Of a stretch of 51,400 nucleotides of DNA, positions 5,526-50,815 are shown piece by piece. The number at the start of each line of letters is the position of its first letter. The first letter of the stretch is position 1. This stretch comes from Candidatus Saccharimonadota bacterium (lineage in GTDB: Bacteria; Patescibacteriota; Saccharimonadia; Saccharimonadales; 2-12-FULL-41-12). The DNA lies in the NCBI GenBank assembly GCA_022842995.1, contig JALHOM010000008.1, positions 1 through 51,400 of the forward strand, written 5' to 3'. A program made the position numbers and the translations under genes. Below the pieces are notes generated by a model. That model was given only the letters and a program-made list of their open reading frames with translations, was not told the DNA's origin and made no database searches.

Positions 5526-5560
5526 CTAACGGCTAACGGCTAACGGCTAACGGCTAACGG
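5526..5560. repeat. Heptamer tandem repeat (CTAACGG)x5
   Basis: Counted directly. Confidence 0.95.
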
Positions 5561-5937
5561 CTGATAGTTGATGTGTGAGTGATAAAAAAGATGAAACATT
5601 TTTGAAACGAAGACTCGTGGTTTAGGTTATTCGAGGAACCCCTCCCTCCATGGGGGCTAAATCAATAGTATTGCCAATTATCTATAATTCTCTCACCCAC
5701 GTCGCAAAATATACATTGTGCGACGTTTAATCACTGACTTTTGTTCTGGTGATTTATGCCTCTAAATTTTGGTATTTATTGTTCCCTGCGATTTTCGTGC
5801 GATTAATTTTTGCTCCCACTGCCCGACTCTCTACTATGGCTAGAATATGCTTTACATGCGTCGTGGTTTTTAATAGATTTTATATCGCGCGTGTTCGTAT
5901 TTTGCTCTTATTCAATGTTCGCCAAATGTTCGCTTAT

Positions 5938-10500: not shown

Positions 10501-11364
10501 TTATTTTGCCGACCATTTACCGAAATTAACAGAGGCGACGCCTTTGATTTCGAGCATTGTTAAGTGGGTTTGAATAATCTGTGGTTCATGCACTCCCGCT
10601 ACGAGCAGTTCGTCAATGGTTGAGGGCTTTTTTGTAACTATGTCTAATATGTATTTTTCTATCTCATTTTCGGGCATGTAGGCTACGGCGTGACTTTGAT
10701 CTTTGATGTTAAGGATTTCTAGAATATCGGCCGTTTCTAGGACGGGGGTGGCGCCCTGTTTGATGAGGCGATTTGTTCCGCTACTCGTCGCACTGGTGAT
10801 GTTGCCAGGGACGGCTAAGACAGGAATCCCGAGATCGAGGGCGTAATGGGCAGTGTTGAGGCTGCCACTCGCTGTTGCCGCCTCTGTAATCAAGATGGCG
10901 TCGGCACAGGCAGCGATGAGCCTGTTGCGCTCTAAAAAGCGGTATTTAAGGATGGTTGCGTCGTCGGGCCTGTGCTCGCTTATGAGTAGTCCACCATTCT
11001 CGATAATTCTCGAGGCTAGGCCCAGGTGCGAGCGAGGGTAGATATGATTGATCCCCGATGGCAGTACGGCAATAGTTTGGCCGCCAGCATCTAGGCAAGC
11101 TCTGTGAGCCAGGCTGTCTATACCTAAAGCTAATCCACTAACGATAATGACCCCTGCTCTTGCGAGCTCACTGGCGAGCTTTGTCGTTACTGTTTGGCCG
11201 TAAGGGCTATATTTCCTGGCGCCGACTATGGCGACACGTGGCCTGCCGGTTTCGAGCAATGAAGTATCGCCCTTCCCTGTTAGTAACAGAGGTGGTTTAT
11301 GAAGCTGATGAATGGCTTCGGGGAGCGTAGCACCGCTTAAGCTTACTATTAATTCTTCTTGCAT
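10501..11364 (-). CDS. dprA: DNA-processing protein DprA
   Basis: VAIVGAR, IVSGLALGIDSLAH, FLERNRLIA and SGSLNTA motifs; C-terminal wHTH; dprA-topA synteny. Confidence 0.96.
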   Translation of the reverse strand: MQEELIVSLSGATLPEAIHQLHKPPLLLTGKGDTSLLETGRPRVAIVGARKYSPYGQTVTTKLASELARAGVIIVSGLALGIDSLAHRACLDAGGQTIAVLPSGINHIYPRSHLGLASRIIENGGLLISEHRPDDATILKYRFLERNRLIAACADAILITEAATASGSLNTAHYALDLGIPVLAVPGNITSATSSGTNRLIKQGATPVLETADILEILNIKDQSHAVAYMPENEIEKYILDIVTKKPSTIDELLVAGVHEPQIIQTHLTMLEIKGVASVNFGKWSAK

Positions 11365-11388
11365 TTATAACAAAATAGTTAATAAGTA

Positions 11389-11417
11389 TTGACATAGTCA
11401 AAGATTTTTGATATTAT
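11389..11417 (+). promoter_or_regulatory. Consensus-like promoter TTGACA-N17-TATTAT inside the inverted repeat ATTGACATA...TATGTCAAT
   Basis: Read directly; a second TTGACA lies on the minus strand. Confidence 0.65.
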
Positions 11418-11483
11418 GTCAATCTGTAAGCTTTGGAGTACTAAAGCTTATGTACCTTCCATACCCCCAATGTTAGATTGTTT

Positions 11484-11726
11484 TAGAGTGCACATGCCTG
11501 CATCGATAATCCCCTGCCCAGCGGGCAACCCGCTAGCCCGGAATTATCTTTCAGCGATCTGCTGCGTTACTTTATCCAATGCTCCCTTCATCGTACCACA
11601 GTACGACTCAGGTCCGCTTGAATAAAGTGCCTCGCATCTCATCTGAATGCAGACATGTGCAGGCTCTACTGGGAAAGGTAAATACCCTCCACCTCCTCCC
11701 GACTGTAGCCGACTCAGGGTTTACCT
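11484..11726 (-). ncRNA. Unidentified structured RNA candidate
   Basis: Helices of 15, 11 and 9 bp plus hairpins; six A-C mismatches on + become G-U pairs on -. Confidence 0.65.
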
Positions 11727-11933
11727 GGGTCCTCTAAAGCATACTAACCCCTTTAACCCCGCGTTCCCCCCTCGTGTTGATTGAGCTGTGGCGGATACGA
11801 CGGAAATACCTATGAGTGGGCTGACGAGTTCAATTGCGAGATTACTTGTCAGAGGCCTTCAAGGTGGGTTGAAGGGTGTTTTAGTGGGCTCGACGCGTTC
11901 GAGCCCGATAATGAACCTCCAGCGGTGCCCACC

Positions 11934-12110
11934 CCCTCTGGAGGTTCTTTATTTTACGCGGGAATTAACGACACTTCGCTCGCGACTACAAAAAGCCAAG
12001 CCCTTGGCTTTTTGCCCTCTGGAGGTTCTTTTTGATTTCAGGACAAGACGACGCTTCGCTCGTGACTACAGAATGGCAAGCCCTTGCCATTCTGCCCTCT
12101 GGAGGTTCTT
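11934..12110. repeat. Tandem array with 80-81-bp period, covarying hairpins and 17-18-nt variable segments
   Basis: CCCTCTGGAGGTTCTT at 11934, 12015 and 12095. Confidence 0.9.
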
Positions 12111-12138
12111 GCGATATGCTCAGGAACAGTACATTTTT

Positions 12139-12168
12139 TTGCAAATAAGCATAAACGTTTGGTATAAT
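12139..12168 (+). promoter_or_regulatory. Promoter TTGCAA-N18-TATAAT with extended -10
   Basis: 11 nt upstream of the ATG at 12180. Confidence 0.55.
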
Positions 12169-12179
12169 ATAAACCTAGT

Positions 12180-12761
12180 ATGTCGGTTGCATTACTAGAA
12201 ACAGGTCCTCAAGTGTCGTCCTGTTTCAGCGACCGCAGGAAACGAAGACAGGCTTGCCTTGACGAAGTTCAACGCATGGGGACTGTTGAGGCGCAGGGCC
12301 GAATTTATACTCGTGGAGAATTCTTTTTAGAACTCGATACTGCAACTCAGTCTGCATTGGCCGGGTTATTTTGTCATGTAGAACAGCATGGATACGGGCA
12401 AGTTTTAAATCAAGGCGTTGTACCGTCTCATATTGCTAGTGAAGGCTTTGCGCTGATGACGACAGAGTTTCGTACCGTCGGCGGGGTGCAAGTATTTTTG
12501 ACGAAGCACGAGATCCCTGATTCTATTGGTATGCGATCTATTTATAACGGAGGTTTTGGCCGTTATGCTAGATGCTCGAAGATTAGTAATGCAAAAGAAT
12601 CAGTTAAGTTTTTAACGTTTTTACCTGATAGGTATCATTACCAATCTTCTGATGATCTGCAGGCTCATTATTTACACGGTTCGCGTATCGTTAGAGAGCT
12701 AGCTGCGGTTGTCGGTATTCGGTTCTTGGACTCAATGCTAAACTACACGATTCACGAGTGA
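12180..12761 (+). CDS. Hypothetical protein (weak ADP-ribosyltransferase-fold resemblance)
   Basis: 193-aa ORF with its own promoter. Confidence 0.65.
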   Translation: MSVALLETGPQVSSCFSDRRKRRQACLDEVQRMGTVEAQGRIYTRGEFFLELDTATQSALAGLFCHVEQHGYGQVLNQGVVPSHIASEGFALMTTEFRTVGGVQVFLTKHEIPDSIGMRSIYNGGFGRYARCSKISNAKESVKFLTFLPDRYHYQSSDDLQAHYLHGSRIVRELAAVVGIRFLDSMLNYTIHE

Positions 12762-21355: not shown

Positions 21356-21430
21356 GGCCGCATCGTCTAACGGTTAGGACACCAGGTTCTCATCCTGGCA
21401 ATCGGAGTTCGATTCTCCGTGCGGTCACCA
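21356..21430 (+). tRNA. tRNA-Glu (CTC)
   Basis: Full cloverleaf: CCAGG-TTCTCAT-CCTGG anticodon arm, GTTCGATTC T-loop, encoded CCA. Confidence 0.97.
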
Positions 21431-21465
21431 AAACAAGAGCCCCACTGTTGTGGGGTTTTTGTTTT
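21430..21465 (+). terminator. Intrinsic terminator after tRNA-Glu
   Basis: AAGAGCCCCAC/GTGGGGTTTTT stem followed by a T-tract. Confidence 0.75.
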
Positions 21466-21571
21466 GGTCGATTTTCACAGAAAATCGAGAACTCCGCAGG
21501 AGTTCGTTCATAAGGAGCTCTCGCAGATGCTTGCATCGAGAAAGCGACGCAATGGTTGCTTTAGCAACGGA

Positions 21572-21587
21572 TCCGTGCGGTCACCAA
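21572..21587 (+). repeat. 16-bp duplicate of the tRNA-Glu 3' end (att-like)
   Basis: TCCGTGCGGTCACCAA is identical to 21416-21431. Confidence 0.9.
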
Positions 21588-30011: not shown

Positions 30012-30239
30012 TTGAATCACATGAAAGGTATTTCTCTCGGTAAAAGCTTACTTTTGCTAACTGTTTTTGCAGTTCTGCCCTTTCTCTTGTTTTTGGGTTG
30101 GGCAATCGTGAATGGCAGTGCCATTGCTGGTGTATTTGCGATTCTTTTTGCCCCGGTGGCTTTGGTGACTCTTGCACTCGATATCCGCCAGATATTCTTA
30201 AAAAGACTAAAGACCAAAGATAGAAGAGGCAAGAGTTAG
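30012..30239 (+). CDS. Small two-TM membrane protein
   Basis: Two hydrophobic stretches; C-terminus encoded by heptamer repeats. Confidence 0.55.
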   Translation: MNHMKGISLGKSLLLLTVFAVLPFLLFLGWAIVNGSAIAGVFAILFAPVALVTLALDIRQIFLKRLKTKDRRGKS

Positions 30240-30662
30240 GAGTCAGGAGTCAAGATTCGCCTTACGGCGAAGGAAATCGGATCTAGTAACTAGTATCTAG
30301 CAACTAGTTCCCTGGATTCTCGTAGCTCTCTTTAATCTTTCGTCTTTCGTCTAACGGCTCTTGTCTCATAACTCATGACTCTAGATTTGAAATTTGAAAT
30401 TGGAAAATAGAAATTTGAAATCAGAGTAAAGTTTAAAGACTAAAGATTAAAGGTACTGAAACAGTAGCTACTCTTATCTCCTGTCTCTAAATCAGAAAAT
30501 AGAAAATAGAAAATAGAAATTAGGATTTGGCAGACGTCAAAATAAAGCCATTGCCAACCACAACCGAATAAAACATACTCAGTTAATTCCTAATTCCTAA
30601 TTCCTAATTCCTAATTCCTAATTCCTAATTCCTAATTCCTAATTCCTAATTCCTAATTCCTA
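30202..30662 (+). repeat. Modular heptamer-based dispersed element, copy A, ending in (CTAATTC)x10
   Basis: Exact blocks shared with copies B and C; array spans 30590-30659. Confidence 0.9.
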
Positions 30663-32857: not shown

Positions 32858-33388
32858 TTAAAAATTCTTCAAAAATTCGACGAGTTGTGAAGGAGTTATC
32901 TCGGCTTTGATAATGTAGGCGTCGGCTTCTTTTTCGACGGCAGCCCGCGTTTCATCGTCTTGTTCGAGGTTGGTTGCAATAATAATTTTACTCTTTAAGT
33001 CAGGATTTTTGCGGAGTTCATGTAGGACGTCAATTCCGAGCAGTTGCGGAATGACAATATCTAGCAAAATGATATCGTAGTCACCACTGAGCGCGCGCTC
33101 GAGACCAGCTTTACCGTCGTTGATGATGTCCGCTTCGTAGCCGGCTTTTTGGAGTGCATGCTTATAGAGATCACCAATGAAGGCTTCATCTTCGATGCAA
33201 AGTACCTTCTTGCCGCTACCACTACCGGGGTCTGACGTGACACTTGAAGCAATATCCGAGAACTCCGGTGTTTTATATAAGCTGGGCGTGGCGTCGTCGG
33301 TTACGGGCTTAGGTATGTTGTCGCTGTCTTGTTGCATAGTCTCTTCCATACTACCATTATTTGAGTTATGGGCTATCTTCCTGTTCAC
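32858..33388 (-). CDS. Single-domain response regulator (start probably 33337)
   Basis: VLCIEDE, DIILLDIVIP, YIIKAE. Confidence 0.9.
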   Translation of the reverse strand: MNRKIAHNSNNGSMEETMQQDSDNIPKPVTDDATPSLYKTPEFSDIASSVTSDPGSGSGKKVLCIEDEAFIGDLYKHALQKAGYEADIINDGKAGLERALSGDYDIILLDIVIPQLLGIDVLHELRKNPDLKSKIIIATNLEQDDETRAAVEKEADAYIIKAEITPSQLVEFLKNF

Positions 33389-33413
33389 TGTAAACTGTTC
33401 ACTGTATACTGTC
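33380..33413. repeat. Degenerate heptamer array (CTGT at a 7-bp period, x5)
   Basis: CTGT at 33381, 33388, 33395, 33402 and 33409, directly after the kinase stop codon. Confidence 0.75.
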
Positions 33414-36219: not shown

Positions 36220-36400
36220 GGATTAGAAATTAGCTGATTACGTTTTATTCATTCGTGGTTGGCGATGTCTTTTTGGTATCTATCATTTTCTAATTTCAAT
36301 TTTCTGATTTAGAGACAAGAGATAAGAGTAGCTACTGTTTCAGTACCCTTAAACTTTAGTCTTTAAACTTTAGTCTTTGAACTTTACTCTGATTTCAAAT
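36220..36400 (-). repeat. Modular heptamer-based element, copy C (inverted, partial)
   Basis: 29-nt exact inverted match (36319-36347 vs 30452-30480) plus the shared right-end motif. Confidence 0.9.
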
Positions 36401-49944: not shown

Positions 49945-50243
49945 ACTAGCTATGAGCTAGTAGCTAGCAGTGAGTCATGAGACATGAGTTATGAGTTTAG
50001 ATTCGCCTCCGGCGAAAGGAGATAATAACTTGTAGCTCTCTTTAATCTTTCGTCTATAATTTTTAGGCTTTCGTCTGTCGATTCTTATCTCTTGACTCTT
50101 AACTCATGACTCTAGTTCAGAAATTTGAAATTGGCATTAACCCAAAAAGTCGCTATTGCCAACCACCAATGGATAAAACATACTCAGCTAGTTTCTAGTT
50201 TCTAGTTTCTAGTTTCTAGTTTCTAGTTTCTAGTTTCTAGTTT
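49945..50243 (+). repeat. Modular heptamer-based element, copy B, ending in (CTAGTTT)x8
   Basis: Exact blocks of 24, 16, 15, 12 and 15 nt shared with copy A; array spans 50188-50243. Confidence 0.9.
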
Positions 50244-50815
50244 CGAATCCCATGGATGTCGGCGCTCGAGAAGTCCATAGCGTTAGAGTCTATGGTTATT
50301 CCTGACAGATCAGGATTGTCGCGCAGGCCTCTAAATAGTGTGATGTGCGGGCTGAGTTCAAGGGCCCATTTGAAGTTGATGCTCGACTTCATGAATTCTT
50401 CTGGGTCGTCTACCCCACAGCCTTTCAAAAAAGTTGTGAGATCTAAAAGGGCTTGGTCGTGACTTTTTATTAGGTCGTCGTTGGGTAGTAGCCTGAGTGC
50501 CAAAACCGAGCGATTAATACCAAATAACGATAACTCGGTAGGTGTTAAGGATGTTGGAGATGGTAAATGCTGTTTGGCGGTTTCGATATATAGCGTTAGG
50601 TTTTCCTGGAATACGCTATTGGTCAGATTTGGCATTACCCTACGAATGTCGTGAAAGACATGCTCTGCCACGCCAAAATGAAGTACGGTAACGTGCCACT
50701 TGCTTGGTTCGACTGGACGACCCTTAATGGTATTTTTGAGTGCGTCAGTCAACTCGCCGAGTCTGTCGCGCGTTTCATCTGACGGGATAAGCTCAATATA
50801 TAACCTCGTGTCCAT
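50237..50815 (-). CDS. 2H phosphoesterase (2'-5' RNA ligase-like) family protein
   Basis: Two HxT motifs (WHVTV, PHITL). Confidence 0.8.
   Translation of the reverse strand: MDTRLYIELIPSDETRDRLGELTDALKNTIKGRPVEPSKWHVTVLHFGVAEHVFHDIRRVMPNLTNSVFQENLTLYIETAKQHLPSPTSLTPTELSLFGINRSVLALRLLPNDDLIKSHDQALLDLTTFLKGCGVDDPEEFMKSSINFKWALELSPHITLFRGLRDNPDLSGITIDSNAMDFSSADIHGIRN

What the first reader, a model, noticed from the sequence alone, without database searches (positions are those of the whole stretch)
11934..12110. 80-bp-period mini-array: constant structured repeat with short variable segments and compensatory hairpin changes
Seen: CCCTCTGGAGGTTCTT occurs three times. It is followed twice by a 17-18-nt variable segment (TATTTTACGCGGGAATTA, TTTGATTTCAGGACAAG), then ACGACRCTTCGCTCGYGACTA, then a 12-bp palindrome (CAAAAAGCCAAG/CTTGGCTTTTTG vs CAGAATGGCAAG/CTTGCCATTCTG). 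The two palindromes differ at three positions per arm, all compensatory. Inference: a REP/BIME-like unit (GTAG lies next to the palindrome on the minus strand) or a processed small-RNA array with guide-like variable segments. It abuts the orphan structured RNA region. No nuclease or RAYT gene is visible in the window.
Basis: partly seen in the sequence, partly recalled or inferred. Interest (0 to 1): 0.75.

Follow-up and report, generated by a model that had tools for sequence, protein, structure and literature searches.

The report
Small hairpin insertion element, two tandem copies
The 80-base "mini-array" is two side-by-side insertions of a roughly 50-base hairpin element that has spread patchily through Saccharibacteria, landing at the edges of tRNA and other genes and always adding about 80 bases, by a mechanism that is not yet known.

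Summary
Window 11934-12110 reads A-X1-A-X2-A. A is CCCTCTGGAGGTTCTT. Each X is a 17-nt arm, a 21-nt block and a 12-bp hairpin.

A is not part of the element. It is the last 4 loop bases, the 3' arm and the start of the T-tract of the terminator hairpin of a conserved, unidentified RNA gene next to dprA.

The block+hairpin core belongs to a dispersed family in Saccharimonadales. It occurs in 37 of 401 genomes, with 1-17 copies each. In the window's own genome it occurs only here.

Elsewhere the core sits in two settings:
- directly against the first base of a tRNA gene, with no repeat;
- just after a gene end (tRNA CCA, this RNA's terminator, or a stop codon), followed by a 9-32-nt copy of that gene end.

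Two filled/empty site pairs show real insertion. Hairpin pairing covaries strongly. The two repeat starts are always about 80 nt apart, whatever the repeat length. The right junction is almost always hairpin|GG or hairpin|CC.

Reverse transcriptase, Y1/RAYT transposase and extra integrases do not track carrier genomes. Arrays never exceed 2-3 units.

Verdict: a non-autonomous insertion element of a new type. It is not REP/BIME and not a guide array. The enzyme and any host function are unknown.

The parts
11389..11417 (+). Promoter-like site TTGACA-17-TATTAT (TG-extended) in front of the conserved RNA region
   Evidence: 11 of 12 matches. It lies in the block 11365-11494, which is conserved across the order.
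11424..11956 (+). Conserved unidentified RNA-like region, always divergent from dprA. This is the target gene of the insertions. The start coordinate is inferred from the promoter.
   Evidence: 52 of 61 relatives match the 11365-12179 query; the conserved blocks lie upstream of the array. dprA is adjacent in all 22 fetched relatives' loci tested. No Rfam match. It is not RNase P RNA, which lies on C1.
11913..11947 (+). Terminal hairpin of that RNA: 5' arm 11913-11922, invariant 15-nt loop 11923-11937 (CGGTGCCCACCCCCT), 3' arm 11938-11947. It is followed by a T-tract.
   Evidence: I1. In 23 relatives the stem covaries while the loop is invariant. The loop's CCCACC is complementary to the GGTGGG loop of hairpin 11856-11875 (read from the sequence).
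11934..11950 (+). A1: the native target sequence (last 4 loop nt, the 3' arm and TTT). This is the left copy of the duplication.
11951..11967 (+). Left arm of unit 1 (ATTTTACGCGGGAATTA)
   Evidence: It is unrelated to the sequence after the right repeat.
11968..11988 (+). 21-nt conserved block of unit 1 (ACGACACTTCGCTCGCGACTA)
   Evidence: 73.3 bits for block plus hairpin
11989..12014 (+). 12-bp hairpin of unit 1
12015..12030 (+). A2: duplicated target
   Evidence: period 81
12031..12047 (+). Left arm of unit 2 (TTTGATTTCAGGACAAG)
   Evidence: It shows weak likeness to the native sequence after A3 and to the arm in G029.
12048..12068 (+). 21-nt conserved block of unit 2
   Evidence: 68.5 bits
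12069..12094 (+). 12-bp hairpin of unit 2, with three compensated pair changes relative to unit 1
12095..12110 (+). A3: duplicated target, followed by the native downstream sequence
   Evidence: period 80

Best explanation
Window 11951-12110 holds two tandem copies of a small, non-autonomous insertion element.

The element's core is a 21-nt block (ACGACGCTTCGCTCGYGWCTA) followed directly by an 11-12-bp hairpin, 47-48 nt in all. It is preceded by a left arm of variable length.

Both copies went in at the same point, in front of CCCTC in the loop of the terminator hairpin of a conserved RNA gene next to dprA. Each insertion left a fresh copy of the 16-17-nt target (A) behind it. The RNA gene therefore keeps an intact terminator, and the target site is regenerated for the next insertion.

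Shown here:
- The element is inserted DNA: two filled/empty site pairs exist.
- It lands 5' of GG or CC.
- It lands at gene borders: the first base of a tRNA gene, the 3' part of a tRNA, this RNA's terminator, or a stop codon.
- Insertions inside a gene's 3' end carry a 9-32-nt duplicate that restores the gene end.
- Each such insertion adds about 80 nt whatever the split between duplicate and arm.
- The hairpin is kept by compensatory change.

Inferred:
- The array arose by repeated insertion into the regenerated target, or by unequal recombination between the A copies.
- The hairpin and block are the recognition site for the inserting activity.
- The fixed 80-nt increment reflects integration of a unit of fixed length, linear or circular, whose first bases are replaced by the target's own sequence.

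The enzyme is not identified. It is not a reverse transcriptase, a Y1 transposase or a dedicated integrase that can be seen in the carrier genomes.
For: Dispersed family:
- CM R1 hits 12 of 30 genomes of the family and 37 of 401 of the order, in 31 of 255 genera, with 1-17 copies each.
- The best copies score 73-76 bits in two different families, f1 and f51.
- More than 120 metagenome contigs hold the block.

Insertion shown by site pairs:
- G028:C2 has a 54-nt insert flanked by a perfect 30-nt repeat. The orthologous site in G029:C36 has that 30-mer once.
- The orthologous tRNA-Met is filled in G028 and empty in G022, G025, G017 and G010.
- The upstream side of tRNA-Glu(ctc) is filled in G022 and empty in G010, with alignable flanks.

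Context of 129 distinct units:
- 52 abut the first base of a tRNA gene on the same strand, none with a repeat.
- 28 lie just 3' of a tRNA, 27 of them with a repeat that ends at or just after CCA.
- 18 others have repeats.
- When right flanks are swapped among units, only 3% give a repeat.

Other regularities:
- The period is 71-85 nt in 44 of 45 repeat-bearing units; in the first 39 scored it averaged 79.5 (sd 2.5), while repeat length runs 9-32 nt.
- The right junction is GG or CC in 122 of 131 units.
- Hairpin covariation: 9 of 11 pairs change on both sides, the score is 0.476 against 0.143 +/- 0.012 in shuffles, and the slid controls are lower.

Same target hit in other lineages: G029, G010, G039, G289 and G315. 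In G289 two units at this RNA have different junctions, which means independent insertions.
Against: - No enzyme is identified.
- The window's genome has no other copy and no obvious donor.
- The three A copies are identical, while the arms beside them are only about 50% alike. That is odd for neutral DNA and hints at selection or conversion acting at this site.
- 40% of family members sit exactly at the first base of a tRNA gene, without a repeat. That could mean a working tRNA leader and not a parasite.
- Orthologous old copies (G029 versus G022 at tRNA-Arg) keep the hairpin through a compensated change. This again suggests function.
- No known mechanism explains the 80-nt rule.
- No transcript data exist.
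Confidence: 0.72

Rival explanations
1. The core is a working RNA module of stable-RNA transcripts, such as a 5' leader or 3' trailer hairpin used in processing, termination or regulation. It spread among tRNA and RNA genes by duplication and gene conversion. On this reading the two units here are part of the 3' trailer of the dprA-adjacent RNA and act in it. This can be true together with mobility, as a domesticated element.
For: - 52 of 129 units end exactly at the first base of a tRNA gene on the same strand, which is where RNase P cuts.
- The block is nearly invariant.
- Hairpin pairing is kept by covariation, also between orthologous copies.
- The A copies are conserved here while the arms are not.
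- The unit between tRNA-Gly(tcc) and tRNA-Arg(tct) recurs in three families.
Against: - Only 9% of genomes of the order have it, and sister species lack it at orthologous genes.
- It also sits after stop codons of protein genes, with duplicated codons.
- In three cases it abuts a tRNA 3' end on the opposite strand.
- No Rfam family matches.
- No expression data exist.
Confidence: 0.18
2. An ordinary REP/BIME-type extragenic palindrome moved by a RAYT (Y1) transposase.
For: - A hairpin with CTAC directly 5' of it, which reads GTAG on the other strand.
- The window's genome has five Y1_Tnp-like ORFs on other contigs.
Against: - Y1_Tnp is absent from all six genomes of genus g5 (5-17 copies each), from G018, and from G174, G217, G278, G289, G065 and G132. 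It is present in non-carriers G002, G003, G005, G008, G015 and G019.
- Copy numbers are 1-17, not hundreds.
- Target duplications of 9-32 nt are not a REP feature.
Confidence: 0.03
3. A processed small-RNA or CRISPR-like array whose 17-18-nt variable segments act as guides.
For: Regular 80-nt spacing of a structured constant part and a variable part.
Against: - No locus has more than 3 units among more than 200 loci.
- Most family members are solitary and next to tRNAs.
- The 'variable' part is the element arm plus duplicated target.
- No phage contig holds the block.
- No cas-like gene is near.
Confidence: 0.02
4. A neutral local tandem duplication with no wider meaning.
For: There are two adjacent copies and no other copy in this genome.
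Against: - Homologues with the same architecture occur in 36 other genomes and in more than 120 metagenome contigs.
- The three stem differences between the two units are all compensated.
Confidence: 0.03

Closest known systems
tRNA/tmRNA-targeting integrative elements (attL/attR duplication of the gene's 3' end)
   Same: The insert lies at the 3' part of a stable-RNA gene. The gene's last bases, CCA included, are duplicated so that the gene stays whole. The displaced copy lies on the far side of the insert. Repeated insertion at one site gives tandem arrays.
   Different: The insert is 50-70 nt with no integrase. Carriers hold only the one housekeeping Xer-like recombinase. There are dozens of different targets, including protein-gene ends and tRNA 5' ends. 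Repeat length trades off against arm length.
REP/BIME and REPIN elements
   Same: A short extragenic hairpin repeat with a conserved tetranucleotide beside the stem. Pairing is kept by compensatory change. Small clusters occur.
   Different: There is no link to RAYT. Copy number is low. Long target duplications occur. Placement at gene borders is precise.
MITEs, and 5'-truncated SINE/LINE copies
   Same: Non-autonomous, with filled/empty sites and a patchy, lineage-specific spread. The copies form a nested series truncated from the 5' side, with target duplications of variable length, as in target-primed reverse transcription.
   Different: There are no terminal inverted repeats. Most carriers have no reverse transcriptase. 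Duplication length and truncation add up to a constant.
Casposon and CRISPR spacer integration (Cas1-type)
   Same: Long target duplications of up to about 30 bp. Casposons prefer a tRNA 3' end (PMC5137440, listed; abstract only read).
   Different: No Cas1 was looked for or seen. The duplication length is not fixed. The insert is a tiny hairpin element.
Bacterial class C group II introns
   Same: Insertion just after intrinsic terminator hairpins (from my own knowledge, not tested here).
   Different: There is no intron RNA structure and no IEP, the element is about 50 nt long, and duplications are present.

Membership tests
REP/BIME (RAYT-mobilised) | Co-occurrence with a RAYT / Y1 transposase gene | tested here: not met
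   PF01797 is absent from 13 of 14 carrier genomes tested and present in 6 of 14 non-carriers.
REP/BIME (RAYT-mobilised) | Tens to hundreds of extragenic copies per genome | tested here: not met
   2 copies in the own genome; 1-17 in carriers.
REP/BIME (RAYT-mobilised) | GTAG/GTGG tetranucleotide 5' of the palindrome | tested here: inconclusive
   CTAC is nearly invariant directly 5' of the stem on the + strand. On the other strand GTAG lies 3' of the stem, which is not the canonical side.
MITE | Terminal inverted repeats | tested here: not met
   The ends are ...TTTCAC-NA-ACGAC and ...TTTTG. No inverted repeat joins them.
MITE | Target-site duplication of fixed length | tested here: not met
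   Repeats are 9-32 nt, or absent in class I.
MITE | Filled and empty orthologous sites | tested here: met
   G028 versus G029; G022 versus G010.
IS200/IS605-derived hairpin element (PATE) | Y1 transposase in the genome; insertion without target duplication | tested here: not met
   duplications are present in 45 of 129 units.
Integrase-driven tRNA-site integrative element | Duplication of the gene's 3' end that restores the gene | tested here: met
   27 of 28 units 3' of tRNAs have a repeat that ends at or just after CCA. The same holds here for the RNA's terminator arm.
Integrase-driven tRNA-site integrative element | A cognate integrase and one specific att site | tested here: not met
   Carriers have a single Xer-like recombinase, as do non-carriers. 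There are more than 15 distinct targets.
Retroelement-derived (SINE-like / retron-like) | Reverse transcriptase available in carrier genomes | tested here: not met
   PF00078 is absent from 11 of 14 carriers tested, including G022 with 17 copies and the closed genome G217.
CRISPR-like array | Long arrays of repeats with unrelated spacers, and cas genes | tested here: not met
   At most 3 units per locus. The 'spacers' are duplicated target plus arm. The five neighbouring genes scanned are topoisomerase, dprA, peptidyl-tRNA hydrolase and two ORFs without any Pfam match.
Any Rfam RNA family | Covariance-model match | tested here: not met
   Nothing reaches gathering score. The best match is NsiR1 at 15.8 bits, E=3, on the terminator hairpin only.

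The most novel reading that the evidence does not exclude
This is a new kind of bacterial insertion element that needs no transposase, reverse transcriptase or integrase of its own. It integrates as a unit of fixed length (about 80 nt), 5' of GG/CC at the borders of stable-RNA genes and gene ends. The first 0-32 nt of the unit are overwritten by the target's own sequence, so that the hit gene is repaired in the same event. That would point to a measuring intermediate, such as an 80-nt circle or a wrapped synaptic complex, or to a host activity tied to RNA 3'/5' ends. Neither has been described.
Probability: 0.3. Interest if true: 0.85.

Novelty: new variant of a known kind. Interest (0 to 1): 0.66.

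Why it matters
Saccharibacteria and other CPR bacteria have tiny, tightly packed genomes, and very little is known about their mobile DNA.

This family shows that very small elements can colonise such genomes by landing exactly at gene borders and rebuilding the gene end they interrupt.

The fixed 80-nt increment, the GG/CC junction and the absence of any matching enzyme give a concrete puzzle about mechanism that can be tested.

The element also marks the 3' end of a conserved, unannotated RNA next to dprA, which deserves its own study. It inserts promoter-like arms and hairpins in front of many tRNA genes, so it may shape tRNA expression in these organisms.

Tried and rejected
**Identity of the units and the upstream RNA**
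- Rfam at gathering and E-value thresholds, on the window and on four relatives' loci, found nothing.
- ARAGORN and RF00023 found no tmRNA in the genome. The weak hit on C5 is a tRNA-Met with an intron.
- RNase P RNA is elsewhere.

**Structure**
- A 5-bp stem inside the 21-nt block shows no change on both sides, so it is not supported.

**Candidate enzymes**
- RAYT/Y1 transposase, reverse transcriptase and tyrosine recombinase do not correlate with carriers.

**Sources and expression**
- Phage origin: no viral contig holds the block.
- Transcript evidence: no RNA run holds the locus.
- DNA runs from drinking water hold it. Their contigs break at the repeats and gave no 0/1/2-unit polymorphism. 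They did show a related organism with a variant unit, and other Saccharibacteria with the same terminator and no unit.

**Models for the 80-nt rule**
- A fixed 32-nt duplication whose distal part has eroded: rejected, because the arms are unrelated to the sequence after the right repeat in 22 of 25 cases.
- A pseudo-tRNA fold of arm, core and tRNA 3' fragment: rejected by inspection, because the arm does not pair with the acceptor strand.

**Neighbouring gene and literature**
- The ORF 12180-12761 beside the array is not conserved next to the RNA gene in relatives and has no Pfam match.
- Three literature searches found no description of such an element.

Full report
**1. The observation**

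Window 11934-12110 reads A-X1-A-X2-A.
- A is CCCTCTGGAGGTTCTT, at 11934, 12015 and 12095.
- Each X is a 17-nt variable arm, a 21-nt block (ACGACRCTTCGCTCGYGACTA) and a perfect 12-bp palindrome.
- The two palindromes differ at three stem positions. Each difference is matched on the other arm.

BLAST finds no other copy in the 1.11-Mb, 96%-complete genome.

**2. The surroundings**

The organism is a member of Candidatus Saccharibacteria, order Saccharimonadales. Relatives have genomes of 0.6-1.6 Mb.

The array lies in an 815-nt gap between dprA (10501-11364, minus strand) and an unknown ORF (12180-12761).

Most of this gap is a conserved RNA-like region.
- It has a near-consensus promoter at 11389-11417.
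- Its blocks at 11365-11494, 11732-11757 and 11857-11956 recur in 52 of 61 relatives.
- It is always divergent from dprA.
- It ends in a hairpin whose stem covaries and whose 15-nt loop is invariant in 23 genomes.
- It matches no Rfam family. It is not RNase P RNA and has no tRNA-like ends.

A is the last four loop bases, the 3' arm and the first Ts after this terminal hairpin. A is therefore target sequence, not element sequence.

**3. The family**

The same block+hairpin occurs in relatives. A covariance model, R1, gives this census:
- 12 of 30 genomes of the family. All six genomes of genus g5 carry it, with 5-17 copies each. In the window's own genus, only this genome has matches below E 1e-5.
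- 37 of 401 genomes of the order, in 31 of 255 genera, with up to 14 copies at that stricter setting.
- The best-scoring copies (73-76 bits) lie in two different families, f1 and f51.
- More than 120 metagenome contigs hold the block.

The distribution is patchy, and near-identical copies occur in distant lineages. This is the pattern of a horizontally spreading element.

Hairpin pairing is strongly supported on 97 copies. Nine of 11 pairs change on both sides. The covariation score is 0.476, against 0.143 +/- 0.012 in shuffles, and all slid controls are lower. A stem inside the block is not supported.

**4. Where the units sit**

I classified 129 distinct units.
- Class I, 52 units: the hairpin's last base touches the first base of a tRNA gene on the same strand. 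None has a flanking repeat.
- Class II at tRNAs, 28 units: they lie 5-24 nt after a tRNA's CCA. In 27 of them the hairpin is followed at once by a copy of the tRNA's last 11-28 nt, which ends at or just after CCA.
- Eighteen further units have such repeats at other targets. These are the terminator of the dprA-adjacent RNA (G029, G010, G039, G289, G315 and this window), another conserved hairpin, and the last codons plus stop of protein genes such as an L7/L12-like C-terminus.
- Swapping right flanks among units gives a repeat in only 3% of trials.

The two bases after the hairpin are GG or CC in 122 of 131 units.

**5. Proof of insertion**
- G028:C2 carries a 54-nt insert between two perfect copies of a 30-mer at the end of an ORF. 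The orthologous site in G029:C36 has that 30-mer once. The flanks are 81-82% identical.
- The orthologous tRNA-Met is filled in G028 and empty in four sister species.
- Upstream of the orthologous tRNA-Glu(ctc), G022 carries a roughly 93-nt class I insert that G010 lacks. The 45 nt upstream, including the -10 box, can be aligned.
- That class I insert brings its own long arm, with the GTGGCTGGCGCAC-like and TAYACTG motifs. The shorter arms of class II copies are nested 3' parts of this arm.

**6. The 80-nt rule**
- In the first 39 repeat-bearing units the two repeat starts are 73-85 nt apart (mean 79.5, sd 2.5). In the 129-unit set, 44 of 45 are 71-85 nt apart.
- Over the same units the repeat length runs from 9 to 32 nt and the arm from 24 to 0 nt.
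- The arms are not worn copies of the sequence after the right repeat.
- Every insertion therefore adds about 80 nt, whatever its make-up.
- Class I copies have arms of 32 nt or more and no repeat, so they fit the same sum.
- I know of no mechanism that gives this rule. It is recorded as unexplained (note).

**7. Arrays**

Pairs with spacing of about 76-85 nt recur.
- They occur in G174, G065, G025 and G289 and in several metagenome contigs. None has more than three units.
- In G065 the two units are identical, which indicates a recent tandem duplication.
- In G289 two units behind the same RNA gene have different junctions and scores, which indicates independent insertions.
- In G174 the upstream of the two units is followed by a tRNA-Ala-like 3' fragment that does not match the tRNA-Arg gene beside it.
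- In G029 the second unit behind the RNA gene is followed by a terminator arm of another species' type.
- The last two cases suggest that units travel with a piece of their previous target.

In this window both junctions are the same, hairpin|CCCTC. The units are 87% alike and all stem changes are compensated. Either they came from two donors, or one was duplicated and the hairpin was then kept by selection.

**8. Enzymes**

None of three candidate enzyme families tracks the carriers.
- Reverse transcriptase (PF00078) is absent from 11 of 14 carriers tested.
- Y1/RAYT transposase (PF01797) is absent from 13 of 14 carriers and present in 6 non-carriers. The window's genome has five such ORFs on other contigs.
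- Tyrosine recombinases: carriers have the one Xer-like gene that every genome has.
- No phage contig holds the block.
- No RNA run holds the locus.
- Drinking-water DNA runs hold the locus. They also show a related organism with a variant unit, and others with the bare terminator.

**9. Reading**

The array is two insertions of a non-autonomous element at a hot spot that each insertion regenerates.

It is not REP/BIME (no RAYT link, low copy number, long duplications). It is not a guide array (at most three units, and the 'spacers' are target plus arm).

A working role as a tRNA leader or RNA trailer module cannot be excluded and may coexist with mobility. The points in its favour:
- the exact placement at the first base of tRNA genes;
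- the near-invariant block;
- hairpin conservation between orthologous copies;
- the identical A copies beside diverged arms here.

The mechanism is unknown. My best guess is integration of a fixed-length unit, recognised through the block and hairpin, at N|GG/CC sites exposed at RNA-gene borders. The target's own bases would replace the start of the unit where a gene end must be rebuilt.

Noticed in passing
window 11365-11956 (+): A conserved, unannotated RNA-like gene that is always divergent from dprA across Saccharimonadales (52 of 61 relatives). It is about 365 nt in some relatives and about 530 nt here because of inserts. Two invariant loops, GGTGGG at 11863-11868 and CCCACC at 11928-11933, are perfectly complementary, which suggests a kissing interaction. 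It has no Rfam match and is neither RNase P RNA nor a recognisable tmRNA.
   Followed up: partly
genome contig C5:33927-34280 (-), outside the window: A tRNA-Met(CAT) gene interrupted in the anticodon loop by an insert of about 280 nt. It has intact 5' and 3' halves and ends in CCA. It surfaced as a weak tmRNA hit.
   Followed up: no
whole genome G000: Neither ARAGORN nor RF00023 finds a tmRNA gene in a genome that is 96% complete.
   Followed up: partly
window 21416-21587: An unrelated 140-nt hairpin-rich insert after tRNA-Glu(ctc), flanked by a 14-nt repeat (CCGTGCGGTCACCA) that ends in CCA. It has the same style as the element studied here but belongs to a different family.
   Followed up: partly
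genome contig C4:28130-28330 and C4:28840-29400: tRNA-Gly(tcc) is followed by tandem 35-nt repeats that each start with CCATTCGAC. tRNA-Arg(tct) has an insert of about 170 nt with a repeat of over 20 nt of its 3' end. The hairpin motif GAAGTTCCGGGCYCGCCRAAGGTG occurs both before and after it. This motif also occurs in G029 (L033). A run of N masks part of the region.
   Followed up: no
genome contigs C14:4047, C4:56923, C18:10488, C11:42655, C3:14347: Five Y1_Tnp (IS200/RAYT-like) ORFs of 179-277 aa lie in this small genome. Sister species have one or none.
   Followed up: no
window 5526-5562, 30202-30662, 33381-33412, 36349-36390, 49971-50244: Many perfect tandem heptamer arrays, for example CTAACGG x5, TAATTCC x11 and CTAGTTT x8. 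They are clustered in a few regions.
   Followed up: no
L033 (G029:C30:11800-14300): A type IV pilin-like gene (216 aa) is bracketed by two units in the same orientation. Each has the same arm and is followed by the same 15-mer, CCCTTGAGGTCACCA. The units may therefore flank or move whole genes.
   Followed up: no
runs X1-X4, 111-nt contig laid on window 11934-12031: A second organism in the same drinking-water samples carries a variant unit behind the same terminator arm. The unit has 9 differences. The contig runs on with AATTACTTCAGGA, which resembles arm 2 of the window.
   Followed up: no
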